A stretch of DNA of 64,000 nucleotides from Eledone cirrhosa (taxonomy: Eukaryota), in assembly GCA_964016885.1 (NCBI GenBank), contig OZ024748.1, forward strand, positions 30,194,001 through 30,258,000, read 5' to 3'. This document shows, piece after piece, positions 10,650 to 64,000 of this stretch. Position 1 is the stretch's first letter. The number at the start of each line of letters is the position of its first letter. Below the pieces are notes generated by a model. The model worked only from the letters and a program-made list of their open reading frames with translations, had not been told where the DNA came from and did no database searches. A program made the position numbers and the translations under genes.

Positions 10650-11412
10650 GTTTTACCATATTTCTAATGAAAGTCACCGCCTATGATTTTTCTAATAATT
10701 TTGAAAATACTCAAAAATTCAGAAGGATTTATCCTTCTTTATCATTAAGTTGGTGTTTAGAACATAAGTTAGCAAAGATTGTTTCATAAAATTATGATGG
10801 AAGGTTTTTAGATACATATAAACATTTAAAAATAAACAAATATTATAGAATGAGCAGCAGTTTCACATGGTTTGGTCTCAAAAGGATTCATAATAAAAGA
10901 CAAATATTAAACTACAGAAATCTAATATTATCTGTCATGTAATAACGAGAAATGGGATTCCAGGCCAGGATTTTACTTGAAAATTGAAAACTGTAACAGA
11001 GGTTTTGGGGAGAGCAATTTTATCTTTAACTCTTTTATGGACATATTTCTAATGAAATATTCTTTTATTCTTTTACCAGTTTGTCATTGGACTGTGGCCA
11101 TGCTGGGGCACCACCCTAAATACACTGTATTTCAATTAAGTAATGAAGAATTTGGACGGATTTATTAAAATTATATATTATTTTATGAACAAATGGTTCA
11201 CATATAAAATTATGTTGGAAGATTTTAATGGGTCACTTCAAAATATTTTTTTAAAATCATGTTCACTTAAAAATAATTTTTAAATAATTAAAATATACAC
11301 AGACATGTATATAATGTGAAATGAAACTGGAAGGCCCATATATATATATATATATATATGTGTGTATGTATATATATAAATGTGCGTGTGTATGTATACA
11401 TATATATATATA

Positions 11413-13024
11413 TAGAGAGAGAATTGATCTAGATGAAACGCAGTTCGGGTTTGTGTCAGGTAAAAGTACCACAGACGCTCTTTTCATTGTACGACAACTA
11501 CAGGAGAAGTACCTAGCTAAAAGCAAACCCCTATACTTAGCTTTTGTCGACTTGGAGAAAGCCTTCGACAGAGTCCCCCGTTCCATTATCTGGTGGGCTC
11601 TTAGAAAACCAGGTGTTGATGAATGGCTTGTGAGAGCTATACAAGCCATGTATAAAGAAACAGTCAGCAAGGTTAGAATTAACAACGAATATAGTGAAGA
11701 GTTTAGCGTAAAAGTTGGTGTTCATCAGGGCTCCGTTCTTAGCCCCCTACTATTTATTATTGCCCTTCAGGCTATAACAGTGGAGTTCAAGACCGGCTGC
11801 CCATGGTAACTCCTATACGCAGATGATCTAACGTTCATAGCTGAATCAATGACCGAACTAGAGAAGAAATTCCAAACATGGAAGCACGGCCTAGAATCAA
11901 AAGGCTTTAAAATTAACCTGTCTAAGACTAAAGTTCTAGTTTGTAGGAAGGAAAATAGGGCGCCGGTCCCATCCGGGAAATGGCCATGCTCAGTGTGTAG
12001 GAAAGGAGTAGGTAGAAACTCCATTTTATGTCCCAAATGCAAAGTATGGGTGCATAAAAGATGTAGTGGGATCACAGGTAAGCTAACTAAGAACATAGAT
12101 TTTATATGTGGCCGGTGCTCTGGTGCAATAAGTAGCAGCAAGTGCCCTCAGAATACTAGCTCATTCCATTGCACAGATGGTTCTATAGAAATAGTGGACA
12201 GCTTCCGTTACCTGGGTGACAAAATCAGCAGTGGGGGAGGGTGCTCTGAAAGTACTGTAGCTAGAGTCAGAACTGGATGGAAAAAGTTCAGAGAGCTTAT
12301 ACCACTATTAGCCACTAAAGGGTTCTCCCTAAAAATGAAAGGCAGGCTGTATGATGCTTGCATACGAACAGCAATGTTGCATGGCAGTGAGAACTGGGCA
12401 TTGTGTGCAGAGGATATATGCAGACTGGAGAGGAACGAAGCTTGCATGCTCCGCTGGATGTGTAATAGTAATATACGTGAACGGCAAAGCATAAATGACC
12501 TAAGGGAAAAATTAGAAATAAGAGGGATCAGATGTTGTTTACTCGAGAGAAGGCTACGTTGGTACGGTCACGTGATACGCATGAAAGATGACAGCTGTAT
12601 AAAAAAGTGTAGGCCAATAAAAATAGACGGTAGCCACGGAGTAGGCAGACCCAGAAAAACCTGGGATGACTTGATAAATTCCGACCTCACACACTTACAC
12701 CTCTCCAAGACAATGTCACTGGACCGAGACCTTTGGCGCTACACAGTAATAGAGAAGACCCGCCTTACCTAAGTACAAAGTGAAACCTACTACAGTCAGT
12801 AGCTGAAACCTACAACAGTCCACGCTGTAATGTGGCCGTGTAGGTAACACGGTAAAAACCTCCCAGTTCCACACTGTAAATGTGGTTGGTGTTAGGAAGG
12901 GCATCCAGCCGTAGAAAACCCGCCAGACAGTCCTATGTGAGCAAGACAACCACTCTTGCCTCAAGTGGGAAAACTCCCGTCCAAACCCATGCAAGCGTGG
13001 AATATAGACGTTAAACGATGATTA

Positions 13025-15329: not shown

Positions 15330-16665
15330 CTATCCTACCAATACACTTACACTGCCCCGTAACCAATACACTTACACTCTCACTCTCCCATTCTACCAAT
15401 ACACTTACACTCTCACTCACCCATCCTACCAATACACTTACATTTTCACTCACCCATTCTACCAATACACTTACACTCTCACTCTCCTGATCTACCAATA
15501 CACTTACACTCTCGCTCTTCCATCCTACCAATACACTTACACTCTCGCTCTTCCATCCTACCAATACACTTACACTCCCACTCACCCATCCTACCAATAC
15601 ACTTACACTCACTCACCTACCCTACCAATACACTTACACTCTCACTCTTCCATCCTACCAATACACTTACACTCTCACTCACCCATCCTACCAATACACT
15701 TACATTTTCACTCACCCATCCTATCAATACACTTACATTTTCACTCCCCCATTCTACCAATACACTTACACTCTCACTCTCCTGATCTACCAATACACTT
15801 ACACTCTCGCTCTTCCATCCTACCAATACACTTACACTTACACTCTCACTCACCCATCCTACCAATATACTTACATTTTCACTCACCCATCCTACCAATA
15901 CACTTACACGCTCACTCTTCCAACCTACCAATACACTTACACTCTCACTCTCCCATCCTACCAATACACTTACACGCTCACTCTTCCATCCTACCAATAC
16001 ACTTACACTCTCACTCTCCCATCCTACCAATACACTTACACTCTCACTCTCCCATCCTACCAATACACTTACACTCTCACTCTTCCATCCTACCAATACA
16101 CTTACACTCTCACTCTCCCATCCTACCAATACACTTACACTCTCACTCTCCCATCCTACCAATACACTTACACTCTCACTCTCCCATCCTACCAATACAC
16201 TTACACTCTCACTCTTCCATCCTACCAATACACTTACACTCTCGCTCTCCCATCCTACCAATACACTTACTCTCACTCACCCATCCTACCAATACACTTA
16301 CACACTCAGTCGCCCATCCTACCAATACACTTATACTCTCACAATCTACCAATACACTTACTCTCACTCTCCCATCCTACCAATAACACTTACTCTCACT
16401 CTCCCATCTTACCAATACACTTACTCACTCTCCCAGTCTACCAATACCCTTACACTATCACTCTCCCATCCTACCAATACACTTACTCTCACTCACCCAT
16501 CCTACCAATACACTTACACTCTCAGTCGCCCATCCTACCAATACACTTACTCTCAGTTGCCCATTTTACCAATACACTTAGACTCTCACTCTCCCAATCT
16601 AAATCTACCAATACACTTACACTCTCACTCTCTGTCTCCCAATATACTTACACTCTCACTCACTC
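15330..16665. repeat. 33-bp minisatellite (catcctaccaatacacttacactctcactctcc), about 40 units
   Basis: Direct inspection; produces the spurious ESVSVLVGW ORFs on the - strand. Confidence 0.95.
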
Positions 16666-40700: not shown

Positions 40701-43700
40701 ATTGCACTTTCTGTGGCAAAGAATTCTATGGTGAAAACTATCTCGATAAACACTTTGACAACAGACATCCACAATATGTCCGAACGGCAAGCTAGTCTCT
40801 TTTTATTTGTTTTTCCATTTCATAGCAGATGTGGAATTGCTTATGCTCCTTAGTATCTGTGTTTCATCATTTTGTGTCCAATTAGCACCCAGTCCACCTT
40901 GTTAGGTAGTAGTGCTGGTGCCATGATAAAATGTACTTAGTCCACCTTGTAAGGTGGTAATGCTGGTGCCATGTTAGAAAAACACCCTGTACATACAGTA
41001 AGGTTGTAGTGCTGGTGCCACAATAAAATGCACCCAGTACATACTGTTAAGTGGTAGTGCTGGTGCCATTATAAAATGCACCCAGTACACACTGTAAAGT
41101 AGTAGGGCTGGTGCCATGCTAAAATGCACCCTGTGCACACTGTAAAGTGGTTGCTGATAGGAAGAGTCTCCAACCATGGAAACCATGCCAGAATTGTCAT
41201 ATAAGCAAAACATGGTCAAATCTCAGAACATGACAGTCCATCTAACCCATACCAGCTTGAAAAATTGACATAAAGTGTTGATGATGATGATCAATATATA
41301 TTGAATAACATTGCCTATCTATGTCGCTGTTGTACAGGAGGCATAACTTCAGGTTCTCTGGACAGTGAAAAAATACAGAGAAAGAATAGTAGTGGTTGTT
41401 TTCTCCCTTACATTAGGGGATGCGGTTTCATGATGGCATGTTTGGATTTTGTTATTTTTTATTATAGGTTGTGGGCACATTGTAATATATCATTGTAAAA
41501 TCACTTCAATAATATATAGTGACTATTTTATTATAGCACAACTATATGCTCTACATGACAAATTGCACCCAGTATACACTGTAAAGTGGCTGGAGATAGG
41601 AAGGGAATCCAAACAAAGGATTGGGAGCATCCTTCAGTTATGTCAAAGACATGACAATCTCCCCTGTACACAATAGAAGTGTACAGGGGAGGTTGTCTAA
41701 GACTGTACGTAAGTGAGATGCAGACATGCCCAAAGCCTGTCTGGGAGATCAGTAACTACTGTTTCAATACTGACCTGCCCAACCCTTGCTAGCTGGGAAA
41801 GTGGACATTAAACGATGATGGTGATACTAACACCACTATATATGTATGTAGCTCAGTGCTTGCTCTCTACAAATACCTGTAATCAAACTTTACCTGTGGT
41901 TCATGATTTTACCCATCAATTTACCTACCAGTTTTGTTGATTTAACCCTTTAATTACTGTATTTCTCATGAATGACAGTGCCTCTGGTTTTCAAATTCTT
42001 TTGAAAATTATCAAGGATTTGAATGGATTTACTGTATGTACTTGAATATAAGTCAACCCCACTATTTTATGTCTAAGAAATTAGCAAAAATTCAAACCTT
42101 ATTTATATTTGTAGTTAGTGAAAATCATCAAAATATTGACCCCAAATATAAACCAACCCCCTTCTGCCATCAAGTAATTACATAACTAACTTTTTCATTA
42201 TCAAGCTGATGTTTGGAACATTATAAAGGTTCTTACATAAAATTATGATGGAAACTTCTGCCATCCTCTCCTATAACTGTAATTTCCCCAGCCTGACCAA
42301 GGACACTATGCGTGCTCTAGTGTCAAAAAATGGTAGTGCTGGTGCCTCAATAAAAAGCCTACTCTATCAGGTGGTGGAAGTGGTACCTTAATAAAATGCA
42401 TCCAGTACACGCAATAAAATGGTTAGTTCTAGGGACGGCATCTAGTCTTAGAAACTATGCCAGAATGGAACATTTGGGCAAGGCATGGCCATCTGAAATG
42501 ACACCCTATAAAATGTTGATGATGATGAGAACAAGCAGCCTTGTATTGTAGAACAAGGCCTGGTTTCATGTGTTTTGGTATCAAAAGAGTTAAGTGATAA
42601 AGGTGAGGATTTATATTTTTTCAGGAGAATGACACAGTGTGTTTGGCAGATTATTGCGATGTGTTTCGTTGTGAAATACTATCTGGTGCCTTGGAACCAA
42701 ACTACTGGGACATGGCATTGTGTCTTGAAGACGACATGTATGAACTCCAGCAGAAATGTATGGTAAGTAATATATTACTGGTATTAAACATTAACTCCAT
42801 GAGGTGCATAATGGTAGTGAGGTTCGCAATCATAAGGTCACAGATTCCACTATGTTTGGAAGCTCATCAGATGGACTCTATCTGTAATTCAAAAGTTTAT
42901 GGGTACACTTGTCTATGGAAATAAAGATGGAATGTACCTGTAATTTAAAGGTCTGACCTTTGAATTACACCAAAAACAGCCAGTAACGATTGTACCACTA
43001 GTTACCAATGACAACCATTGCCAGCCATGTTAGCTGCTAGGCAATACACTGCACATCTCCCATCAATCTATGAAGGGTTTGTAGAGGATTAGAGCAAAAC
43101 ACAATCAGTAAAACAACTTCTCTCTTCAATCTATTTGTCTATCTATCTAATTTGTTTGTTTTATCACAAATACATCATACCAGTAGAAATATTTATTTTC
43201 TTTTGCACGAGCCAACAATTTTATGTAGTCTCACAAGTTAAATTGTGCAAAACTATAGCCAGTATGAGGGCTGATGACATAATAAGATGTTTGAGAGATT
43301 TTGTCTCATTCATTTTCTTCCTTTTCTCCCTTCTTCTGTGGGCCAACACACTTCTAACCACTGATTTCTGTCCTTTGAGGTAAATTTTACCCAACACCGT
43401 CATTGACCTCATTTTGCTGTTTTAACAGCTATTCTTGTGTTGAGTTCTTCCCATTATTCTACAAATATATCTAGGGCGGGTAAAATTCCCGAGATCCATG
43501 GACGAGTTCTCTCCAGCGGTCTCTGTCCCTCATTATCGCTGCCATGTCCCGGTTCTCTAACAGACCGGTGTCTGTCCTTAGGGCATCAACATACGTTAAC
43601 TTTGGTCTTCCTCTTCCAGTGTGTCCATGTAGGGGCTCCCACAGGAGCACTGAGTGCAATGTCAACTCTACAAATATATATATATATATATTATATTTGG

Positions 43701-46407
43701 AAGGTTGGGCCTCTAACCAGGTTGTTTAAATACCTTTAAGGCGAGGAATGTTTTAGCACCCCCTTGAGTATATATATATATGTATATTTGACTGCTTGGG
43801 GCAGATGTGGACTCCATAAGCCGTAGTGAAGGCAACCCATCTGAGAAAGCAGTTCCTCAGATTAAAAACATCTGCACAGGGCAGATGTGCACCCTGTAAG
43901 CTGTAATGAAGGCAATCCATCTAGGAGGGCAGTGACTCCGATATAAAAATGACTGCATGGGGCAGGCATGGGCTCTGTAAGCGGTAGCGAAGGCCACCCA
44001 TCTAGGAGAGTAGACACTCCAAATAATAACTGCTACATCGTTGAGAGGACTCTTGAGTCCAGTAAAACAACCTCTAGTGCTGGTGGCATGGACACTCCAC
44101 CCAGTCTATGTTTTAAAGTGGTTGGTGATAGGAAGGGCATCCAACCAGTAAAACCCAGCCAAAATCATTGAAAACAACTAATATTATTTCCACTAGTTGC
44201 GAACACAGGGCTAACAAGTCGTGTTAGTGCTACGCATGGTAATGGAGTGGCTAGAACAGCCATGTGTGAGAACCCCTCGACCATCATCAAGCAATTGCAC
44301 AACCACTTTCCCTTTCATGCAGGAAAATATGGAGACAGAGGGTGTGGAAGCTAAAGGACCTCTTGGTTAAATATAGGTTTAGAAAGGCCTTACAGGATGC
44401 ACCTGATGAGAGGGATGACGAGCTAGATACATACAACGTAGAAGACAACTGGGAATTCTTACATGACAATCTTTTGCGAATTACTGGTGAGACTTGCGCT
44501 AGACAAACAGAGGGTGATCTCGTTGGGAAACAGCACAGTAGGTACAGATGGAAAGGCTGGAAAAGTAGGGATAGCAGAGACTGGTACCAAGTAGATAAGA
44601 AACTAGGTCACAGTTATGCACAGCTCAGAGAGAAGCTGAAGAAAGTAAATTTGCCAATGTGTTGAGGCGTGAGGATCAGAGACGTGAAGTGTTCCGTATT
44701 GCAAGGCAGTGTTTTAGTGTTAATTGAGATGTTGTTGGGGAAAATGTGTTAGAAATGATGCTGGTGCACTTAACACCACTCAAAAGAAAGTGGCCTGGAA
44801 ATGTTACTATAAGAGATTAATGAATGTAGAGAATGAATGGGAGGAAGAGAAATTACCCCCAACTTACCCAACAGAAGGACCAGCTATTGAAGCTGATAGT
44901 TTTAGGGTCAAAGACATGAAGAATGGTAAAGCTGTGGGACCATCAGAGATAGTTGCTGAGATGCTAAAAGCATCAGGGGAAGTAGGAGTTGAACTAGTAA
45001 CCTGCATTGTCAGTCAGGTAATACAGGACGGAGTCATACCTAATTACAGGTGCAGCAGTACAATCATAAATTGCTACAAGGGAAAAGGTGATGCACTAGA
45101 AAAAAAGTAACTATTGAGAAATAAAACTAATGGACCAAGTTATGAAAGTGACCAAAAGAGTTATAGCGCAGCTAATTAGGGAGAGAAAGAGTCAAAATAC
45201 ATGAGAGGCAGTTTAGTTTCTTGCCTGGGAAAAGTACTACAGATGCACTCTTCTTAGAGAAGTTCCTAGCCAAAAATAAATTACTATACTTAGCTTTTCT
45301 TGATTTAGAGAACAGAGTACCCTGATCTATTATGTAAAGTGTTTAGCGAGGAATTCAAGGTACAGGTAGGAGTTCATCAAGGTTCAGTTCTTAGCCCATT
45401 ACTGTTCATCATAATTCTTAAGATCATAACAGAGGAGTTTAAAACGGCTGCCCATGGGAGCTTTTCTATGAAGATGATTTGATCCTTATAGCTGAAACCA
45501 AAAAAGAGCTAGAAAATAAATTCTGGTTATGGAAACTGAATTTGAAATCAAAAGGCCCGAGAGAAAACTTAGCCAAAACTAAAGGAGAGAAGACAGGGCC
45601 CATATTCCCTCAGGGAAGTGGCCCTGCTCAATATGTAGAAAGGGAGTAAGCATAAATTTCATACAATGTACACAATGTAAATCTTGGGTACACATAAGAT
45701 GTAGTGGGATAACAAGTAGAGTAACAGGAAGGGAGAACTTTGCATGTAAAAGATGCACAGGAGCAATCAAGAGGAAGAGTGCCAATGATATAAACCTTTT
45801 CCAGTCACAGGAAGGATCCATAGATGTGGTTGATAGCTTCAACTATTTAAGTCACCTAATTAGTAGTGGAGACGGATGTGCTAAGAGTATAATAGTTAGG
45901 ACAGGATGGAAGAAGTTTAGAGAACTACTCCCACTGTTAACAACAAAAGCTTTCTCTCTACCTACAAAAGGATGATTTTATGATGCTGCATGGTAGTGAA
46001 ACATGGGCTGCGACTGCAGGGGACATGCATAGACTGGAGAGAAATGAAGCAGCCATGCTTCATTGGATATGCAATATAAATGTGAGAGAAAGGCAGAGCT
46101 TGGACTAGCTGAGGGAGAAGATGGGATTAAAGGGAATCTGAGATGGTGTTCAGGTGAGAAGACTGCGTTGGTATGGACATGTGATGTGCATGGACAATGA
46201 CCAATGGGTGAAGAAATGCCAGGAAATCCCAGTGGAAGGAAGCCACAATAGAGCATGACCAAGAAAGACCTGCGCAGAGGTTGTAAGAGTAGAACTCAAA
46301 CCGCTAAAACTAGCAGAGAAGATGACGAAGTGGAGAGATGAGGTACTGAGACAGATATATCCAACCCATGTAAGCATGGAAAAGCAGACGTAAAAACGAC
46401 AATGATG

Positions 46408-50500: not shown

Positions 50501-52312
50501 AGAAGAAATTACAAACCTGGCAATCATAACAATTTTTGCTCTCCTTTTTTTTTCTTTGGTGTATCTTAAACAAGTCAAATAACATGGCTATTTTCACATT
50601 AGAAAGACAGATTTCACCAGAAGATTATGGAAGTTTTACTCTTTGCACATGTGTTTGTGAGTGTGTATAAACACACACACACACACACATGTACATATAT
50701 ATGTCTGTATGGATATTTGTGTGCGTGCATGTGTACATATGTATGGATATTTATATGTGTGTGTATGTATATATATCATCATCGTTTAACATCCATTTTC
50801 CTCACTTGCATAGGTTAGATGGGTTGTCACATTATGAGACAAGTCAGGAGACCTCATCTTGCTCATATGGATCTGTATTTTGGCTTGGTTTCTATGGCTA
50901 GATGCCCTTCCTAACACCAACCATGTTATAGTGTGGACTGGAAGCTTTTTATCATAGCACAAAAACAACTGTCTAACAGTGTGGACTGGTGTGTGTTGTG
51001 TCCCCAGCATGACAGGGTGAACTGGACACTTTCCATGTTACCCTCCAGATGGGGACCATGTGTTTCTCATGCATTCCATTTTTAGGCATATTTACTACAT
51101 TCAGATGTTCTTTCCTAACACCAACTACTTTATAGAGTGTACTAGATGTATTTCATTGTGGCAACAACACTAGAGAGGTGGTCATGCCCTCAGCTTGTGT
51201 TGTCTCCATTTTTCAATAATTGCACCAGAATTGTATTATGTTCCCAGCAGAAGTGTGTGTGATGTGGGGAAGAGAGAGAGGATAATGTGTGTATGAATTC
51301 CTTAATAGAGTAAAAAGGACTGGTGAGATAAATACCAATAAGTTCTTCCATTAACAACGATTCTTCCATTGTAACTAATTCAAAAGAAATTCACACAAAA
51401 GACAACTTTTGCCAAAGCACTAAGCATTTTATCACAGCAACAACACTAGAAAAGTTGTTTTTAATATGACTAAAGAGTTGTCTACCTTACGTTGTCTCTG
51501 TTCATGGCACTAACTCTATAGTCATGTCCTTCATATAACTGTAGAACCTTCTATACCTTTTTTGTATGGCTTATGCAGCTGGATGCCTTTCCTAACACCA
51601 TGCTGTTGCTGTTCCAATGCCAATGATTTTAAAGGGTGTACTGAGTGCATTTTATAATGGCACCAACACTAGATAGATCACCTTGTTGCAAGGTAGATGT
51701 GATGAATAGTAAAAATAGAGGGGTGGGGTTGTATTACAAGAGTGACAGGGGAGATAGTGATAAGATGGTGGGAAGTGAAGATTACGCAGTTGTTTGCTGG
51801 TAGGTGGTTGATTAGATAACAGCAATAGAAACATAGAGAGGACAGTAGAAGGGTTGGATGATGGTTGTAGGACAGCATTTTAGCTCTTTTATATAAATCT
51901 AAAAACAAACAAAATCATTATTTATAATAAAGGGTATTTATTATGCAGCTGCATGTGTGTGTATATATATGTATGCAAAAGGCAAACAGAAATAACAAAG
52001 CAAACGACACAGTACAATGAGATATATATGTGGGAATATGAATACACGTGTGTACAAATGTTTATATGTGTGTGAATATACATACACATGTTCAAATGTA
52101 TATGTGCATGTGTAAATATTTATATATATGTGTGCATGTATGTGAATATACATGTTCATGTGCAAATATATATGTGTGTGAATATATACACACATCAGTG
52201 TAAATGTTTAATATACACACAAACATGTATGTAAATGTTATGCTACAATATTTTTATATATATATATATATATTATATATATTATTATGTAATAAACAAC
52301 ATAAGGCAATTA

Positions 52313-52372
52313 TTCCATTTACCAGTGGTTTCTTAAAAGCAAAAGGTTTTGCTTTCAATCCTCAGAATGGAA
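52313..52372 (-). ncRNA. Type I hammerhead ribozyme motif (GUA), inverted copy
   Basis: Exact reverse complement of 56065-56124. Confidence 0.8.
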
Positions 52373-52518
52373 AAAATCCTGGTTTGTTTATTGAATTTGG
52401 ATTTTAAAAACAAAAATGCAATCTATATGAAAGTGAGGCTGGAGAAGGAAGAAGGAAGGGAAAATAAAATAAAACTACACATGCAAACACACACACATAA
52501 AAACACAAAAGCATACAT

Positions 52519-52574
<56 letters not shown>

Positions 52575-52583
52575 TATATATAT

Positions 52584-52614
<31 letters not shown>

Positions 52615-52633
52615 CATACACATACATACACAC

Positions 52634-52666
<33 letters not shown>

Positions 52667-53079
52667 TATATATATATATGTGTGTGTGTGTGTGTACAAG
52701 CATACACATACACAAACATAGCCATACACACACACATATACATACATACATTCACACATTCATACATATATACACACGTACATACATACACATACATAAA
52801 TGCACTCCTCTACATATTCACACACGCAAATAAATATAAGAAAAAAAATTATATATATATATTAAACATTTTAGACACCGATACATAAGGCAGCAGCTAA
52901 CTGGACAGACACGCGTGGTAAGTAATACACACAAATGCAGGTATACATACGTACAAAATAGTAAATACATACACACACTCTCACACATAAATATACATAT
53001 ACAAATACATAAACACATACATACACAAACACGCACACGTATACAATATATACACACACATATGTATATGTAATTACAT

Positions 53080-53119
<40 letters not shown>

Positions 53120-53219
53120 AAATATAAACACACACACAGACACATATATGTATACATACACAGCTATACAATTATACACATACAAATACGTACACATAAA
53201 CACGCACAACCAAATACAA

Positions 53220-53252
<33 letters not shown>

Positions 53253-53265
53253 CACACGCACATAT

Positions 53266-53314
<49 letters not shown>

Positions 53315-53440
53315 CATATACATATGCATACACACACACATACATGTGTGTATGTGTAAAACTCAGTCTTAGATAATTCATATGAACCTTACATATACAT
53401 ATATATAGTAGTAAAGTAATAAAGCAACATAAGGCAATTA

Positions 53441-53500
53441 TTCCATTCACCAGTGGTTTCTTAAAAGCAAAAAATTTTTCCTTCAATCTTCAGAATGAAA
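53441..53500 (-). ncRNA. Type I hammerhead motif (GUG variant), inverted copy
   Basis: Reverse complement of 55026-55085. Confidence 0.65.
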
Positions 53501-53796
53501 AAAACCTGGTCTATCCACATATACATACATATACGCACACACATATATACATACACATACACACATATATATATATACATACATATATACATATATATAT
53601 ATATACACACAAATATACATACACATACACATAGGTATGTGAAGGGCAAGGCAAAAAATAATATATGGGGGGGGGGACATAAGAGAAGGTGAAATATAAG
53701 GGGAGGTAAGGGAGAAAAAAAAAAAGTAAATATACAAGAGTACAGAACGTAGAATCAGCAAAATATTACTATCCTTGAGTTCCCACACCTTACTTG

Positions 53797-54745
53797 ATCT
53801 ACTTACTGCCTCTTTTAAACCCTATCATAAACCTAATGAAAATCTTAGGTATATACACAAAGAGTCTTGCCATCCCCCTATAATTTTAATAATCTTATTC
53901 CTAACATTAGCCGTAGGATTTCTACCTTATCTTCGTCTATGGACATTTTTAATAAAGCCGCCCCTTATTATAATAAACCCCTTAAGAACAGCGGTTTTAC
54001 AGAAAAAATTTCTTATTTACCTACTCCCCCCCCCCCCCCTAAAACTAACCACAATAACAGGAAAAGGAAGATTATTTGGTTCACACCCCCCTTCTCTCTA
54101 ACTGTCAAAACTAATGTAGGAAGGAAATTCCTTGAACTATTAGACAAACATTTTCCTCCTAATCATAGATATTATAAGATTTTTAATAGGAACGTAGTTA
54201 AGATCAGCTACTCTTGTTGCCCATCCATGAAGTCCAAAATCACCAGTTCAAACCGTACGAGAATAAATCCAGGATGCAGTTGCAGGAAGCCGGATGAATG
54301 CCCATTGCAGGGTAAATGTAACACCAAATCTGTCGTTTATGAGGCTAAGATAACACCGGTAATCAACAACCAGCCAGCCAGGAGTGAGCAATATGTCGGT
54401 ATGGCCCAGGACAGGTTTAAAACCAGATTTTACTCACATGTCACTTCTTTTAAGCACTCCGATAAACGAACATCAACGGCCCTCGCAAGTAAGGTGTGGG
54501 AACTCAAGGATAGTAATATCCCGTACTCTATTGATTGGTCTATATTAGACTATTCGAGGGAGTACCAAAGGGGCATAAAGAATTGTTCTTTGTGTACCAC
54601 AGAAAAGTATAGGATTTTGCTAAACTTGAGAGCCACTTCCGCTTGCCTTAACTCAAAGACTGAGATCTTCAGATGCTGTCCTCATCTGAAATCACATCTG
54701 ATCTGCAACTGGATTGAAACTCCTATGATAAATCAACCGCCTTGA
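53797..54745 (+). pseudogene. PLE polyprotein C-terminus: RT thumb, CxCx5C linker, GIY-YIG endonuclease (frameshift near 53880)
   Basis: KPYHKPN...YIHKESCHPP; KIIWFTPPFS...KHFPP...KISYSC; CSCRKPDEC; VVYEAK...YVGMA...FKTRFYSH; CSLCTTEK...LNSKTE...CPH. Confidence 0.88.
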
Positions 54746-55025
54746 ACTCCTCTGCTCTTTACTTCTGCTACGGTTTTTATTTTGCTGATTCTACGTTCTG
54801 TACTCTTGTATATTTACTTTTTTTTTTTTTCTCCTTTACCTCCCCTTATATTTCACCTTCTCTTATGTGTCCCCCCCCCCCCCATATATTATTTTTTGCC
54901 TTGATCTTCACATACCTATGTGTATGTGTATGTATATTTGTGTGTATATATATGTATGTATATATATATGTATGTGTATATATATGTATATATGTGTGTG
55001 TGTATATGTGGATAGACCAGGTTTT

Positions 55026-55085
55026 TTTCATTCTGAAGATTGAAGGAAAAATTTTTTGCTTTTAAGAAACCACTGGTGAATGGAA
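55026..55085 (+). ncRNA. Type I hammerhead motif with non-canonical GUG triplet
   Basis: tttcatt-CTGAAGA-stem II-GAAAC-cactg-GTG-aatggaa. Confidence 0.65.
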
Positions 55086-55221
55086 TAATTGCCTTATGTT
55101 GCTTTATTACTTTACTACTATATATATGTATATGTAAGGTTCATATGAATTATCTAAGACTGAGTTTTACACATACACACATGTATGTGTGTGTGTATGT
55201 GTATGCATATGTATATATATG

Positions 55222-55258
<37 letters not shown>

Positions 55259-55277
55259 GTGTGTATATGTGCGTCTG

Positions 55278-55310
<33 letters not shown>

Positions 55311-55768
55311 GTGTTTGTATTTGGTTGTGCGGGTTTATGATATGTACGTATTTGTATGTGTATAATTGTATAGCTGTATGTAATTGTGTGTGTATGTATA
55401 CATATATGTGTGTGTGTATATATTGTATACGTGTGCGTGTTTGTGTATGTATGTGTTTATGTATTTGTATATGTATATTTATGTGTGAGAGTGTGTGTAT
55501 GTATTTACTATTTTGTACGTATGTATACCTGCATTTGTGTGTATTACTTACCACGCGTGTCTGTCCAGTTAGCTGCCTTCTGTATCGGTGTCTAAAATGT
55601 TTAATATATATATATATATTTTTTTCTTATATTTATTTGCGTGTGTGAATATGTAGAGGAGTGCATTTATGTATGTACGTGTGTATATATGTATGAATGT
55701 GTGAATGTATGTATGTATATGTGTGTGTGTATGGCTATGTATGTGTTATGCTTGTACACACATATATA

Positions 55769-55817
<49 letters not shown>

Positions 55818-56064
55818 ATGTATGATGTTATGTGTATGCGTATGTATATATGTGCGTATATGTATGTATGTATGTATATATATATATAGATATATATATA
55901 TATATATATGTGTGTGTATGTATGCTTTTGTGTTTTTTTGTGTGTGTGTTTGCATGTGTAGTTTTATTTTATTTTCCCTTCCTTCTTCCTTCTCCAGCCT
56001 CACTTTCATATAGATTGCATTTTTGTTTTTAAAATCCAAATTCAATAAACAAACCAGGATTTTT

Positions 56065-56124
56065 TTCCATTCTGAGGATTGAAAGCAAAACCTTTTGCTT
56101 TTAAGAAACCACTGGTAAATGGAA
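56065..56124 (+). ncRNA. Type I hammerhead ribozyme (GUA), predicted cleavage after 56117
   Basis: Stem I ttccatt/aatggaa; core CTGAGGA 56072-56078; stem II ttgaaagcaaaa/ttttgcttttaa; GAAAC 56105-56109; stem III ACC/GGT; GTA 56115-56117. Confidence 0.82.
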
Positions 56125-56369
56125 TAATTGCCTTATGTTGTTTATTACATAATAATAATTAAGCTCTGTTACCTACATAGAGCACTCTTTTTTCCTGGAC
56201 TTTTCCGACGGAATTACTTCATTCACACATATATATATATATATATATTAGCCGAAATCTGATTCTTGTTGTTGTTATTTTTATTATTAATCAATTAATT
56301 AACATTGAATTATTCCCCCAAAATACGATGTTGAATACAAGCGACTGAAATGGGGTTCCTCCGAAGCGT

Positions 56370-57632: not shown

Positions 57633-57704
57633 TCATTTACGAATATGTTGTTGAGAAATTTTCTTTAGGTTCTGCCATTTCCTTTGTTGGGACTGGTAAC
57701 TCAT
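57633..57704 (-). CDS. CCDC113: CCDC113 terminal coding exon
   Basis: caacag|ATG AGT TAC...AAA TGA; MSYQSQQRKWQNLKKISQQHIRK. Confidence 0.82.
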   Translation of the reverse strand: MSYQSQQRKWQNLKKISQQHIRK

Positions 57705-60700
57705 CTGTTGATCAAATATAGAAATTAAAATTTAAAAAAAGGAGAAATTAGAAGTTAATCTCTTTAATACCAAATCGACTGAAACCACCCCTGGTTCTAT
57801 AATACAAAACAGTTTGTTTTAAAGTCTTTATATTTATCTAAAACTCTTCTATCATAATTTTATGTAAGTACCTGTGTTTAGTTATGTTCCAAACACCAGC
57901 TTAATACGGAGAAAGTTAGTTATATTACTCCAAATTTATGATTATTTAAAATATTGTAACAAATGGTTTAATGAAAGTTAGGGTTATCATTTTACATCTG
58001 TAGCTTATTCTGATTATGCAACTGAGAATACGAGACTTCCCTCCCTGGATGAGGTGCTAGTCTAGTGATACTAATGTTCAACTGAGTCAATGTGAATTGG
58101 ATCTATGAGAAATAAAGTGCCTTGCTGAAGGACACAGGGTGTCACCCAGTCTAAGAATTGAACCCATGACTTTACAATCATCAACTCATCACACTAACCA
58201 CTAGGCCAATGCACCTTCAGTAGATATAACCCTGGCCATCAGTGAAATTTGAACTCTGGGTCTAAAGTGATGGAACAGAGCATGTATTTGGATGTAATAT
58301 ATTAACCCCTAATATTACTGGTAGTAAACATTAACTCCATGATGTGTAAGGTGGTAGTGAGGGCATGTGTATTGTCTGTTAGATGTAGTTTATTAACATA
58401 TGTTACTAAACATTACTTACTTTAATAATTTCAACTTTCCTCTGCCAGGTTTTCTGGTCTTTCCTCAAGTCTCTACCTTTTGCTGCCTCGGTAACAAAAT
58501 CCATAACAGCCGGAACTTGATAATCTGATAAATATTCTTTTAAACTCTGATTTAATTTCGTTGCCTCAATTTTTTGCTGCAATATAAATAAGTCTGATAA
58601 CAGTAGTGGTTATTAAATTAGGTAATTGTTTTGTGGGGGTGGGAAAAGTAGATAAAATAGAGGACAGTAGTTGACTGGTACATTATTTTGTCAAAGTAAA
58701 GAACTAGTTGACTGGTAAATTATTTTGTCAAAGTAGAGTACAGTAGTTGACTGGTACATTATTTTGTCAAAGTAGAGTACAGTAGTTGACTGGTACATTA
58801 TTTTGTCAAAGAGTACAGTAGTTGACTGGTACATTATTTTGTCAAAGAGTACAGTAGTTGACTGGTACATTATTTTGTCATTTCCACAGAAGGTAGAAAG
58901 GCAAAGATTTGAAGATGGAGTAAAGAAATACTACAAAACATTTTGACTGAGATGCTCTAACAACTCTGCCAATCTAACACCCTAATAATAACAATGGTTT
59001 CTTTATTATTTATTTATTTATACCAGTGGTATAGTGGTGAAAGAGCATGGCTCAATAGTTAGAGAATTGAATTCACAATCGTGAGGTTGTGAGTTCAATT
59101 TTCGGACCAGGCAATGCACAAGACACTTTATTTCACAGTTCTCTTTCTGCTAGGAGTTTCAACCACTAGATAGTATCAGCAATAAAAAGACCAATAGAAA
59201 CATTGTTTTATTGGTCTGATTTGACAAATTCCACCTCACTCAGTAAGCAAATGAAGTTTGAGATCTTAGTTCAAATCCCGCCGTGGTTAACTTTACCTTT
59301 CATCCTTATGGGGTCGATAAAATAAAGTACCAGTAATGCACTGGGTAATTGCTGGCCTTGTGCCAAAAGTAGAAACAATTATTTATTTGAACCATCAAGT
59401 CAAGAGACCAGACATATATGTTAGAACATCTCAGGAAAGAATCGCAAGCAAAATGGTTGGTCTCGCTTAGGGATCCAGCCAGATCAATTGGAGATGGTTA
59501 ATTCTGACAGGACCCACTGGAAGGAGTGTTTTAGGACTCTACTACCCCACAAACATTTATTTACACCCGTTTTCCATGCTATCCTATGGTGAAAGAGTCA
59601 TAACGGTCTAAGAGAAGACATAATCAGATAACCATGTCTTGCTCAAATATTCCATATTATGGCATGGTTTCTACTTCTTCACACACTGCCTATAATTCTT
59701 TTAATCATTTGGAAAGATTTAAAATATATAACTAACATTATTGTTAGTAAACAGATGTTTGGCACATAACTTAACAAAAGTTCTTACATAAAATTATGAT
59801 AAATATTACAATTAAATTTATCTACTTTTTTCCATCTCACACAATCTAACATTAATGGTCTCAGTTCTTCACTGGATAATTCTGTATCTTCTTCAATTAC
59901 TTTTTAATGTCTTCAGAGGTCTTATGTGTTTGTGTTTCACAGTAGCGGGCTCCGATTGTAAAAGTTTTGTATTAAGTTCATTGCCTCTCATGACATGACC
60001 TGCAAGTTGAAGACTCCTGATACAGCTGGTATGGCTAAATAGGCTGTAGAAGACTCCTGATACAGATGGTATGGCTAATAGGCAGGAGGATGCCATAGAG
60101 AATTTTGTTTGTAATACGGTAAAGAGATTTAATGTTTTTTATCCTTCTTAGCATTGGATAAATATAACCACTTTAAAACAAACAGTTTTGTCCTGTAGAA
60201 CCAGGAGCAGCTTCAGGTGGTTTGATATTAAAAGGGGTTGAACTGTATATCAACCACAATGGTATCAACAATCTTGGAAGAGCTAGAAAAGACATAGGCA
60301 CTGCCCCTCCTCTAACTAAATTGTAACCAAAAATATCTTACCTCAGTGACTTGCTCAAATTCTGAATCAATCTTGGCTTGAAGGTCTTCTTGAATTTTAA
60401 TTTCTGTATTGAGCTTTTTGGATTCTAGCATTAGTTCTTGAAGTTTTTTCTACAAAATATAGTCAACATTTTTATGTATAAATATAACCACTTTAAAACA
60501 AACAGTTTTGTCATGTAGAACCAGGGGCAGCTTCAGGTGGTTTGATATTAAAAGGGGTTGAACTGTATATCAACCAAATTGGTTGAATATAGTACCAGTT
60601 GAAAATAAAGTACCAGTAATGTACTGGGTAATTGCTGGCCTTGTGCCAAAAGTAGAAACAATTATTTTTATGTATAGGTGGGCAACTAAAAACTATACTC

Positions 60701-61892
60701 TAAAAGTCTAAACAACACTTAAAAACATTTTAGATAGCAAAATATTAAAACTTCATAAAGATATTTTCCACTTATGGGAATTTATAAAACATCTCCATCT
60801 AAGCACTATGTTGATTAGCTGCCATGCTTATACACAGGGTTTGAATTTTTGTTCATTCCCCAGGCATAAAATATGATGTGGGGGATACTAATATTCGGAT
60901 CAGTATATAAGGTAATAGATGAAAAATGTTACTTTGATAGAATTTAGAGCCTGTTGTGTTTTTCCAGCTTCCTGTTTCAGTTGGAGTAGATCACTATTTC
61001 TCTCTTCAATTCTTTCCATATATTGTTGATTTTCAATTTTTAACTGATTAAAATCAACTGCATGCAACACTTCACCCATTTCCTCTTTCTGAAAAATATG
61101 CAATGTAAGCAAGTTTATAAATTATCTGACACTTAATCCATGATTCATTTTTAACATCCTATCCAATATGAAACAGCACTTGCAAGACATTCTTGAAAAG
61201 CATGAAACAATACCACGACTACATCATATTAAAAATGTCTTTACAGCAATCAGTAAAGATACTACAAAACAAACATTTGAATTAACAAACACATTTCTAG
61301 ATATCTGCTAAATCATTACAGGTTATTTATTTATTTAATCAATTTAAATGCCGAGCTAGTAAGCCATGGCAGACTAGGGAAAGTATCTAGTATTTCTTAC
61401 GGTTGAGAAACAAAAAGCAAGATTAGTGAATGAATATAAAAATAAAAATAAAACAACAATGAACAAATGAGTGGGGTGGAACTCATCAGATCAAACTAAG
61501 GAAACAATGTTTCCATTGGTCTTTACAATTGCTAATACTATCTTACTATCTACCAGTCACAACTGGCAGAGCAACATACAATAAAGTGTCTTGCTCAAAG
61601 ACATAATGCATCGCCTGCTCTGGGAATTAAATTCGCAACCTCACTAAATAAATAATCAAAGTAGTGAAGGCCAAATGGAAGGAAGAATAAGCATAAAAGA
61701 AGGGGGGGAAAATGTTATTTAACAACATTGCATGTGCAGCATTTAGAAAATGTGACTACATCATATTAACAAAATATGACAAGGGAAAGGAAAATAAATG
61801 TTAACGTCTACCTGCTTAAGTTGAAGAAGAAGTTTTTTCATTTGGGTTCTCTGAGTTGCAATTTTCAGCCGAAACTTCTCTATGAGGGCATC
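57633..61892 (-). CDS. CCDC113: Coiled-coil domain-containing protein 113 (CFAP263), last five coding exons; 5' exons lie beyond the window
   Basis: Exons 61892-61812, 61088-60933, 60449-60342, 58576-58421, 57704-57633, all phase 0 with GT-AG. DALIEKFRLK...LLQLKQ KEEMGEVLHAVDFNQLKIENQQY...DYQVPAVMDFV...WQRKVEIIK MSYQSQQRKWQ-stop matches the CCDC113 C-terminal half. Confidence 0.9.
58421..58576 (-). CDS. CCDC113: CCDC113 exon
   Basis: gcag|CAA...AAA|gtaagt; 52 codons. Confidence 0.88.
58660..58880. repeat. 34-39-bp minisatellite (agtacagtagttgactggtacattattttgtcaaag), 6 units, inside a - strand SINE family 1 copy (~58620-58975)
   Basis: Direct inspection. Confidence 0.8.
59268..59382 (+). 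mobile_element. SINE family 1, 5'-truncated
   Basis: agttcaaatcccgcc...gtagaaacaatta; a 3'-only piece is at 60603-60664. Confidence 0.8.
60342..60449 (-). CDS. CCDC113: CCDC113 exon
   Basis: gtag|AAA...GAG|gtaag; KKLQELMLESKKLNTEIK...EQVTE. Confidence 0.85.
60933..61088 (-). CDS. CCDC113: CCDC113 exon
   Basis: ttcag|AAA...AAA|gtaac; KEEMGEVLHAVDFNQLKIEN...NSIK. Confidence 0.9.
61812..61892 (-). CDS. CCDC113: CCDC113 exon
   Basis: gtcag|GAT...CAG|gtagac; DALIEKFRLKIATQRTQMKKLLLQLKQ. Confidence 0.85.
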
Positions 61893-62124
61893 CTGACAAA
61901 ATATCATTTGAATAGTTTCAAATTTTAGATTTTCATTTTCACATATGCATGTAGTAAGTCTTAGTGGATAGAGTCTTTAGTTCTCAAATCTGAGTTTCTT
62001 AGGTTGTGAGTTCAGTTCTCAGACCAGACTGTGTTGTGTCATTGAGCAAGACACATTGTTTCATGTTGCTCCAGTCCACTCAGCTGTATAAAATGAGTTG
62101 TGATGACACTGGTGCCAAGCTGTG

Positions 62125-62701
62125 TCTTCCTAACACCAACCACGTTTACAGTGTGGACTGGGCGGTTTTTACCGTGTTACCTACACGGCCACATTACAGC
62201 GTGGACAGTGTGTTTTTTTTGTCGTGGCACCTAGACAGCCTCATTTATTTCGGACTGGATGTTGTGGTACCAACATAACTTTACATCGAAAGGGGTGGTG
62301 TGGATGGGGTGGGGGTAGTGGGACGGGGGTGTATTTTTGTTAAGAGGTGCCTACTGACTGTAGGTTTCGCTTTGTACTTAGGCAAGGCGGGTCTTCTGTA
62401 TTACTGTGTAGTGCCAAAAATCTCTGTCCAGTGACATTGTCTTGGAGAGGTGTAAGTGTGTGAGGTTGGAATTTATCAAGTCGTCCCAGGTTTTTCTGAG
62501 TCTGCCTACTCCGTGGCTACCGTCTATTTTTATCGCCCTGCAATTTTTTATACAGCTGTCGTCTTTCATGCGCATCACGTGACCATACCAACATAGTATT
62601 CTTTCGAGTAAACAACATCTGATCCCTCTTATTCCTAATTTCTCCCTTAGTTCATTTATGCTTTGCCGTTCATGTATATTACTATTACACATCCAACGGA
62701 G
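62125..62701 (-). mobile_element. RTE LINE family A 3' fragment
   Basis: [18 protein letters not shown]...QKTRLA plus 3' UTR matching 8800-9370. Confidence 0.9.
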
Positions 62702-62838
62702 ATTTACCCATCTGCATTGTTGAGGCTTCCAAAACGACCCCCCCCCTCCCCAAAAAGAATTTTTTATTATTCCACAATGCTTCAAGCAAACTTCAATACT
62801 ATCATATATATATACATATATATATATATACATATATG

Positions 62839-62885
<47 letters not shown>

Positions 62886-63168
62886 GTATATGTATATATG
62901 TATATATGTATATATATATATGTATATATATATATGTATATATATATATATGTATATATATGTATATATATATACATATATACATAAATATGTGTATAGT
63001 CCTATACGAGAGAGACATGATCACCCGACCAATCTTGCCTCGAATGGGACAATTCCCGTCTAATCCATGCTAGTGTGGAAGATAGATGTTAAACGATGAT
63101 GATGATGATATATGTATATATATATATACACACACACATATATATATACATATAAATATATATATATA

Positions 63169-64000
63169 TATGCTGACGATCTGGCTCTTATAGCAGAATC
63201 AGTAGAGGAGCTAGAGAATAAATTCCGGCTATGGAAACAGCAGTTGGAAGCAAGAGGACTGAGAGTAAATCTAGCTAAGACAAAAGTGTTGATGAGTAGA
63301 AAAGAGGACAAAACCCTGATTCCATCAGGGAAATGGCCATGTTCGATATGCAGAAAAGGAACTGGCATAAATTCTATAAAATGCACACAATGCAGGTCCT
63401 GGGTACACAAGAGATGTAGCGGGATAGCAGGCAAACTAACAGGGAGGGAGAAATATGTATGCAGTAGATGTACAGGGAAATTAGACAGTAGAAGTCGCAC
63501 TGATAGACACATTTTTCAAATGCGAGAGGGCGCTATAGAAGTGGTGGATAGCTTCCGGTACCTAGGAGATCAGATTAGCATGGGAGGAGGGTGTTCCGAG
63601 GCCATAGTATCTAGAATAAGGACGGGTTGGAAGAAGTTTAGGGAGCTGCTTCCTCTGTTGACGAAGAAGGGTTTCTCCCTGCGTACGAAAGGCCGGTTGT
63701 ATGATGCCTGTGTGAGGAGCGCGATGCTGCATGGTAGTGAGACATGGGCAGCAACCGCAGAGGATATGCGACGGCTGGAGAGAAATGAGGCAAGCATGCT
63801 CCGTTGGATGTGCAATGTAAATGTGCGTGAACGACCCAGCATAAATGTGTTGAGAGAGAAACTGTGTCTGAGAGGGATGGAATGTAGTGTACGGGAGAGG
63901 AGACTGAGGTGGTATGGACATGTGATGCGCATGGAGGATGACCGATGGGTGAAGAAGTGCCAGGAAATGCCAGTTGAAGGAAGACGTGGTAGAGGTAGAC
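63169..64000 (+). mobile_element. RTE LINE family B, 5'-truncated at YADD, runs off the window
   Basis: Near-identical to the reverse complement of 2570-3400; begins tat gct gac gat directly out of (TA)n. Confidence 0.92.

What the first reader, a model, noticed from the sequence alone, without database searches (positions are those of the whole stretch)
55026..56124. Tandem hammerhead ribozymes bracketing a ~1-kb microsatellite spacer, mirrored on the other strand
Seen: two type I hammerheads 1039 nt apart. The distal one (56065-56124) has an intact core, 7-bp stem I, a long AU-rich stem II, a 3-bp stem III (ACC-act-GGT) and GUA. The proximal one (55026-55085) has a weaker stem II and GUG, which breaks the NUH rule. 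Both recur unchanged on - (52313-52372, 53441-53500), so the GUG predates this insertion. Known: minimal PLE hammerheads with tiny stem III cleave as dimers, and tandem hammerheads release circularisable monomers in retrozymes. Inference: an asymmetric pair in which the uncleavable copy acts as dimer partner for the cleavable one would cut only at the 3' end and keep the ORF and pLTR together. Because copies face both ways, run-on transcripts from either neighbouring gene could also be cut.
Basis: partly seen in the sequence, partly recalled or inferred. Interest (0 to 1): 0.75.

Follow-up and report, generated by a model that had tools for sequence, protein, structure and literature searches.

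The report
Penelope retroelement carrying decaying self-inserted hammerhead
Both hammerhead-ribozyme motifs are really there, but they belong to a known type of jumping gene that once pasted a short copy of its own tail end into its own repeat-rich tail; the outer motif has been kept intact and likely cuts the RNA, while the inner one has been decaying and is likely a passenger rather than a helper.

Summary
Observation confirmed. The pair lies in the 3' UTR of a young, abundant Penelope-like element with Hydra-clade motifs; the minus-strand pair is the usual inverted truncated copy. The asymmetry is a family trait: in 91 loci with both motifs the distal site is GUA in 90, the proximal GUG in 82. 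The dimer-helper idea is not supported. Older subfamilies have one hammerhead and an empty (TA)n tract at the proximal position; 17 loci show an intermediate stage with an intact GUA insert there; GUG arose later, followed by inherited damage to stem II, the loop-3 palindrome, stem I and once the core (22 inherited variants against 6 in the distal motif; singletons 25 and 25). The proximal motif is a ~110-nt nested self-insertion. Full-length copies have a second GUA motif about 230 nt before the ORF, the likelier partner, and 274 of 277 copies run on past the cut site, so cleavage does not simply make the 3' end. No RNA or cleavage data. The scan noted other Hydra-clade hammerheads in this genome before, not this nested pair. 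Value: a natural within-element control showing constraint on a PLE hammerhead.

The parts
52283..53765 (-). Inverted, 5'-truncated second copy of the 3' UTR (both hammerhead motifs, no tail), ending in (TA)n
52313..52372 (-). Distal-type (GUA) hammerhead motif of the inverted copy
53441..53500 (-). Proximal-type (GUG) hammerhead motif of the inverted copy
53763..53796 (-). 34-nt piece of the element's own ORF at the inversion junction
   Evidence: BLASTN against full-length copy L081
53793..54745 (+). 5'-truncated ORF remnant (end of RT thumb, CxCX5C linker, GIY-YIG-type endonuclease); one-base gap near 53885; 92% identical over 289 aa to the 714-aa frame of copy L098
54746..55009 (+). First part of 3' UTR, ending in TA/TG microsatellite
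55010..55119 (+). Nested ~110-nt self-insertion: truncated copy of the element's own 3' end, without tail
   Evidence: empty site in older copies; intact GUA stage; tree
55026..55085 (+). Proximal hammerhead motif, GUG (G55078), weakened stem II; decaying in the family
55137..55171 (+). Unique UTR landmark that follows the insert and is preceded by bare (TA)n in older copies
55120..56050 (+). Microsatellite-rich 3' UTR ('spacer'); older than the proximal motif; length varies
56065..56124 (+). Distal hammerhead motif, GUA, predicted cut after A56117; conserved across the family
56125..56160 (+). Short 3' end of the element, about 35-40 nt past the predicted cut; half of the copies end here in (TA)n
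56161..56228 (+). Tail, the same sequence as the start of the 5' UTR of full-length units; two predicted hairpins (56163-56183, 56192-56213), z -3.6; followed by (TA)n

Best explanation
The proximal GUG motif is a roughly 110-nt copy of the element's own 3' end sitting in a (TA)n tract of its own 3' UTR, likely pasted there by the element's microsatellite-targeting machinery and likely carried since as a silenced passenger, while the distal GUA motif is the ordinary, conserved pLTR hammerhead that likely does the cutting. Shown by sequence comparison: three successive states in the family (one hammerhead with an empty TA site; insert with intact GUA; insert with GUG and growing damage). Inferred: the distal motif cleaves mainly as a GUA-GUA double hammerhead between the copy about 230 nt before the ORF and the copy at the 3' end of a partial tandem (4.25-4.7 kb apart), releasing a unit-length RNA that is re-joined or left uncut at one site, because reverse transcription starts 35-110 nt downstream of the cut site and runs through it. 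The inverted pair on the minus strand is a by-product of the same insertion event.
For: Empty site: 14 of 30 loci of an older subfamily reach the landmark within 1.6 kb of the stop codon, all 14 with bare (TA)n before it, and none of the 30 has a GUG motif there. Intermediate: 17 of 30 loci fetched have the insert with GUA and the ordinary insertion end (13 with a same-strand distal motif in view). Tree of 49 selected ORF pieces orders single, then GUA/GUA, then GUG/GUA (UFBoot 99 for the GUG clade, 65-92 for the nodes joining insert-bearers). In 91 loci with both motifs: distal GUA 90, loop ACU 91, stem II 11/11 pairs 83, stem I 7/7 89; proximal GUG 82, loop palindrome 22, stem II 11/11 2, stem I 7/7 26. 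Variants shared by two or more loci 22 against 6 with singletons 25 and 25 (Fisher p 0.017; constrained sites 17/18 against 3/19, p 0.010); parsimony 27 against 6 internal changes, about 3 of the 27 being root artefacts. Replicated lineages with A6-to-U in the proximal core (4 loci) or a broken stem I plus lost palindrome (7 loci) exist. GUA-GUA dimer -31.2 against -22.0 kcal/mol for the commonest proximal type with distal. GUA motif before the ORF in 13 of the 19 full-length loci visible, never GUG. 274 of 277 distal-type motifs continue past the cut; 143 of 279 ends go into TA repeats, 128 into the tail. 109 of 110 proximal copies are followed by the UTR landmark and none by the tail, so insertions do not start there.
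Against: No cleavage or RNA data. The proximal catalytic core itself is nearly as well kept as the distal one (intact in 85 of 91 each; 1 internal change in 11 sites against 3 in a 16-nt flank): compatible with drift but too few events to exclude weak constraint. The window's own subfamily keeps the palindromic loop (22 of 91 loci) and can form a heterodimer on paper. Some stem II variants lie in A and T runs and may be slippage. Loci were chosen as best matches to the window protein, so young copies are over-represented; shared variants are not independent events; the ORF tree need not match UTR history (L186 and L280 sit out of place). The GUA/GUA stage did replicate, so an intact inner motif was not lethal.
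Confidence: 0.8

Rival explanations
1. One reading: the GUG copy is kept as a one-way partner that lends its core and stem II to cut the distal GUA site while staying uncut.
For: GUG fixed in 82 of 91 loci; proximal core intact in 85 of 91; heterodimer is 8-9 kcal/mol more stable than two monomers; the proximal copy is 1-1.5 kb from the distal one, nearer than the upstream GUA copy; minimal PLE hammerheads cleaved only as dimers or trimers in vitro (PMC4209133).
Against: Subfamilies without the insert spread widely; the parts it would lend decay in replicated lineages, the loop-3 palindrome being lost in 69 of 91 loci; the distal copy's own enzyme half, dispensable at that site under this model, is the conserved one.
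Confidence: 0.08
2. A refinement of the best explanation in which silencing was selected: the intact inner hammerhead cut the RNA between ORF and priming end, so the lineage that gained GUG out-replicated the GUA/GUA lineage. This would be indirect evidence that PLE hammerheads cut in vivo.
For: All sampled younger lineages descend from the GUG node; GUA/GUA found at 17 loci against 726 exact GUG matches (the two patterns differ in strictness, so the ratio is rough); the one return to GUA (7 loci) comes with a broken stem I closing pair.
Against: The family tree is a single-master ladder, so any change on the trunk sweeps; one hit among the first few trunk changes is not significant; no joined distal-5'/proximal-3' copy, expected from re-integrated inner circles, among 14 pattern hits (that pattern covers GUG-era flanks, not most GUA/GUA-era ones).
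Confidence: 0.3
3. The pair is a retrozyme: two hammerheads release a ~1-kb RNA that circularises and spreads on its own.
For: Geometry of two same-strand type I motifs; ~1025-nt tandem repeats of distal motifs exist at L164; retrozymes are proposed to derive from pLTRs (bioRxiv 10.64898/2026.07.22.740005, part 1 read).
Against: Inner site is GUG with a weak stem II; spacer length varies five-fold; proximal copies found from the ORF are tied to it; the L164 units carry the tail, as partial tandems do; no circle-type junction found.
Confidence: 0.04
4. Neither motif cleaves in vivo; the distal one is conserved as a structure recognised by the RT or for another reason.
For: 274 of 277 copies run through the cut site; low in vitro activity of metazoan PLE motifs (PMC4209133); helix III pairs with probability about 0.1 in the monomer.
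Against: Core, H17 and loop palindrome, all needed for dimeric catalysis, are the conserved positions.
Confidence: 0.1

Closest known systems
Hydra clade of C-terminal EN+ Penelope-like elements (Craig et al. 2021, PMC8557442; section 11 and supplement files S1-S2 read), e.g. Hydra-1_Obim
   Same: Single ORF with RWK, DKT, CxCX5C linker, CxxC and CxH motifs; (TA)n targeting; inverted truncated copy and tail; type I hammerhead near the 3' end with odd-palindromic helix III. First 41 residues about 56% identical to Hydra-1_Obim (compared by eye).
   Different: Unit is 4.25-4.7 kb, not under 3 kb, because of a microsatellite-filled 3' UTR; 11-bp AU-rich stem II; a second same-strand motif inside the UTR. 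Supplement S2 lists one sense-strand motif for each Hydra family that has one.
[quoted passage not shown]
   Same: Type I, palindromic helix III suited to dimers, one motif in each flanking repeat, thousands of solo and opposite-strand copies.
   Different: Here a third, internal, G17 copy is inherited within the unit; position 10.1-11.1 is U-A, not G-C.
Metazoan non-LTR retrozymes (Cervera and de la Pena 2020, PMC7229834, passages; Li et al. bioRxiv 10.64898/2026.07.22.740005, part 1 of 5)
   Same: Same-strand type I hammerheads in tandem.
   Different: Retrozymes are non-coding repeats of about 170-400 nt with a working motif in each unit; this is the UTR of an autonomous element and the inner motif is G17 and decaying.
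G17 hammerhead variants (Kalweit and Hammann 2013, PMC3884650, passages)
   Same: Guanosine at the cleavage site.
   Different: Those were engineered in tertiary-stabilised motifs that kept partial activity; this one is natural, with weakened stem II.

Membership tests
Hydra-clade PLE | Single ORF, RT followed by C-terminal GIY-YIG endonuclease | tested here: met
   714-aa open frame with YRDD and a downstream VVYEA...YVG motif, read by eye; Pfam and PDB sequence searches gave no significant hit
Hydra-clade PLE | RWK motif and DKT in place of DKG | tested here: met
   both in P0002 (definition)
Hydra-clade PLE | CxCX5C linker; CxxC and CxH in the endonuclease | tested here: met
   CSCRKPDEC, CSLC and CPH in window protein and P0002
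Hydra-clade PLE | Insertion into (TA)n; inverted and partial tandem copies; tail | tested here: met
Hydra-clade PLE | Generally short (<3 kb); described as a tendency | tested here: not met
   GUA-to-GUA unit 4.25-4.7 kb in L081, L084, L090, L098; the excess is microsatellite UTR
Hydra-clade PLE | Phylogenetic placement among reference Hydra proteins | not tested
   reference proteins were not held as sequences; by-eye comparison only
Type I hammerhead ribozyme (distal motif) | Conserved core, three helices, NUH site | tested here: met
   no Rfam match at E<=1
Type I hammerhead ribozyme (proximal motif) | NUH cleavage triplet | tested here: not met
   GUG in window and 82 of 91 loci
Type I hammerhead ribozyme (either motif) | Self-cleavage | not testable with these tools
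   needs in vitro assay or RNA end mapping
   stem II, loop palindrome and stem I decay; for the core alone the test is inconclusive
Non-LTR retrozyme | Non-coding tandem units, each with a working motif | tested here: not met
   pair lies in the UTR of an ORF-bearing family; inner motif G17; no circle-type junction in 14 hits

The most novel reading that the evidence does not exclude
After the self-insertion, the GUG copy was recruited as a one-way partner (or competing decoy) that sets cleavage of the terminal GUA hammerhead without being cut itself: a natural asymmetric double hammerhead inside an active retroelement, still working in subfamilies such as the window's that keep the palindromic loop.
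Probability: 0.1. Interest if true: 0.72.

Novelty: new variant of a known kind. Interest (0 to 1): 0.4.

Why it matters
What hammerheads do for Penelope-like elements is open: PMC8557442 (passage) calls their function unclear and allows that they merely parasitise the elements. This family holds two once-identical copies of the motif in one RNA. The terminal copy keeps core, cleavage base, stems and the dimer palindrome through the lineage; the inner copy loses them. That is a within-element control pointing to real, position-dependent function, probably as a dimer. The family also supplies natural constructs for assay (single, GUA/GUA, GUG/GUA, core-mutant, stem-broken revertant), and shows how a microsatellite-targeting element remodels itself by inserting into its own UTR. 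It is not a new kind of system.

Tried and rejected
Rfam scan: only microsatellite-driven miRNA matches, no hammerhead family. Pfam, PDB: nothing significant for the element protein; the protein atlas gave no result. First guess Naiad, then Neptune: rejected, the endonuclease is C-terminal and the motifs are Hydra-type. Idea that the spacer was captured together with the distal motif by read-through: rejected, the spacer landmarks are in single-hammerhead ancestors. Search for re-integrated inner circles: 14 hits, none a distal-5'/proximal-3' join (12 distal copies with a one-base change, 1 GUA-stage insert, 1 proximal copy with GUA and a damaged core). Expression: no RNA holder listed; no reads were laid, so RNA ends and circles stay open. 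A gene converging from the left: 105 of 123 plus-strand frames (plus 4) scanned, only LINE-type RT and PHD pieces found; short exons could be missed. Literature searches that found no description of a nested or paired active/inactive hammerhead in a PLE UTR: (open-access library only; bioRxiv supplements not available). Rows dropped before the 91-locus count: elements lacking either motif in view, second copies within one locus, L090 (overlaps L089) and L082 (junction artefact), from 130 ORF-anchored hits.

Full report
Observation. The window holds four type I hammerhead motifs: 55026-55085 and 56065-56124 on +, 53441-53500 and 52313-52372 on -. The alignment shows the minus copies unchanged within the motifs. 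The distal motif has the full core, a 7-bp stem I, an 11-bp stem II and GUA (A56117); the proximal has GUG (G55078) and a mismatch in stem II. Folding z-scores are -2.5 and -2.3 for distal and +0.5 for proximal copies. Rfam does not recognise either. A 31-letter pattern has 4185 exact matches in the own genome and none for the reversed control; GUA and GUG versions of a 19-letter pattern have 4275 and 726.

The element. The motifs follow a truncated ORF (53793-54745) that is 92% identical to a 714-residue frame found intact at many loci. That protein has RWK, DKT, a CxCX5C linker, CxxC and CxH, the marks of the Hydra clade in PMC8557442 (passages, section 11 and supplement parts read). In 20 loci fetched at 10 kb (one cut from view) the unit reads: GUA motif, about 230 nt, ORF, about 400 nt, GUG motif, microsatellite-rich stretch, GUA motif, optional tail; 13 of the 19 visible loci have the upstream GUA motif, none a GUG one. 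The tail is the start of the 5' UTR. The window copy is a 5'-truncated direct copy with an inverted UTR copy joined through a 34-nt ORF piece, an arrangement described for PLEs. The mirror pair needs no further explanation.

Is the asymmetry fixed? From 130 ORF-anchored hits I kept 91 loci with both motifs, one copy per locus. Distal: GUA 90, loop ACU 91, full stem II 83, full stem I 89, core intact 85. Proximal: GUG 82, GUA 7, other 2; loop palindrome 22; full stem II 2; full stem I 26; core intact 85. Spacing is 747-3578 nt. Genome-wide, discordant types are rare (14 and 38 matches).

Origin of the proximal motif. The more divergent copies carry one hammerhead, yet already have the unique landmarks of the spacer. 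In 30 loci of an older subfamily, 14 reach the landmark that follows the proximal motif; all 14 have bare (TA)n before it, and none of the 30 has a GUG motif within 1.6 kb. Following up the 38 discordant hits, 17 of 30 loci fetched have the insert at this position with GUA and the ordinary insertion end running into (TA)n. A tree of 49 selected ORF pieces (29, 11 GUA/GUA, L280, 8 empty-site loci) orders single, GUA/GUA, GUG/GUA, with support 99 for the GUG clade and 65-92 for the nodes joining insert-bearers; L280 is a GUG copy among the GUA/GUA group. So the element inserted a ~110-nt truncated copy of its own end into a TA tract of its own UTR, and GUG came afterwards.

Helper or passenger? 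In a double hammerhead (geometry from PMC4209133, parts 1-2 read) the GUA site is cut by the partner's stem I 5' strand, core, stem II and loop-3 pairing. The helper model predicts conservation of these in the proximal copy. Variants shared by two or more loci number 22 in the proximal and 6 in the distal motif, with 25 singletons each (p 0.017; constrained sites p 0.010). Distal shared variants keep pairing or lie at free positions, bar one core change at 3 loci. Proximal ones include a stem II break on the trunk, loss of the loop palindrome in 69 of 91 loci, A6-to-U at 4 loci, and a clade of 7 with two stem I mismatches and a return to GUA. Parsimony gives 27 against 6 internal changes, about 3 of the 27 root artefacts. 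Drawn as double hammerheads, distal-distal scores -31.2, window proximal with distal -24.3, the commonest young proximal type -22.0, revertants about -12 kcal/mol. Against my reading: the proximal core is as often intact as the distal, and 1 internal change in 11 core sites against 3 in 16 flank sites has no power; the window's subfamily keeps the palindrome; G17 slows rather than abolishes cleavage (PMC3884650 passages).

How it likely works. Of 277 distal-type motifs in the fetched loci 274 continue past the cut; of 279 ends 143 go into TA repeats about 35-40 nt on and 128 carry the tail (overlapping loci only partly merged, so these count motifs, not independent insertions). Cleavage therefore does not make the end where copying starts. 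The tail folds into two hairpins (z -3.6), which earlier notes of this scan propose as the RT start signal (only the fold was checked here). The insert lacks the tail, and 109 of 110 proximal copies run on into the UTR. The simplest inferred cycle is that of PMC4209133: a transcript of a partial tandem is cut at the two GUA motifs acting together, the unit is re-joined or used uncut at one site, and reverse transcription runs through the ribozyme. The inner motif would be harmful only if it cut; whether GUG was selected for that reason or hitch-hiked on a single master lineage cannot be told (about 0.3 for selection).

Neighbours. A CCDC113/CCDC96-type gene lies on - with a probable last exon at 57633-57704, 4-5 kb upstream of the minus-strand motifs; run-on RNA could reach them, but no effect is shown. 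No host gene was found on + to the left. No RNA run is listed.

Novelty. Hydra-clade hammerheads, inverted copies and dimeric cleavage are known; the supplement of PMC8557442 lists one sense-strand motif per Hydra family that has one. Searches found no account of an inherited nested hammerhead with this three-stage history. It is a new variant of a known kind, useful as a natural control for the open question of what PLE hammerheads do. Interest 0.40; the helper reading has probability 0.10 and would merit 0.72.

Noticed in passing
window 57633-61973, minus strand: Exons of a CCDC113/CCDC96-type coiled-coil gene (Pfam PF13870, best E 2.5e-17), probable last exon 57633-57704; the element lies about 1.4 kb past its stop codon.
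   Followed up: partly
L164 (G000:C1450:21813-26776), L131: Tandem repeats of about 1025-1100 nt made of UTR, distal hammerhead and tail, three motifs in a row at L164: pLTR arrays that look like a step towards a retrozyme.
   Followed up: partly
L143, L147, L160, L102, L164, L187, L199: A supported clade in which the proximal motif has returned to GUA but has two stem I mismatches and a changed loop 3.
   Followed up: yes
L257:1656-1737 and L290:2745: Hammerhead motifs of other families next to or inside copies of this element, one as a fold-back pair; other Hydra-type ends use the same TA tracts.
   Followed up: no
L010, L018, L019, L238: Very short head-to-head fold-back insertions made of little more than two distal hammerheads about 90-110 nt apart.
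   Followed up: no
L195, L153, L193 (3' UTRs): Other repeats (SINE- and LINE-like pieces) inserted in the microsatellites of this element's UTR in single copies; the UTR is a sink for TA-targeting insertions.
   Followed up: no
window 11315-12772, 44270-46300, 62300-64000: Decayed LINE-type fragments with RT and a PHD-finger-like module (Pfam PF00078, PF00628 for the first two).
   Followed up: no
window 15362-16661: Minisatellite of about 40 copies of a 33-nt unit with open frames on both strands.
   Followed up: no
window 58654-58880, 40885-41151, 43789-44020: Tandem arrays with periods 36-39, 48 and 80 nt, the first inside an intron of the CCDC113-type gene.
   Followed up: no
older copies L184, L191, L193: Distal stem I and stem II have fully Watson-Crick pairs where young copies have G.U, and position 10.1-11.1 is unpaired (C.A or A.A), so that pair is not conserved.
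   Followed up: partly
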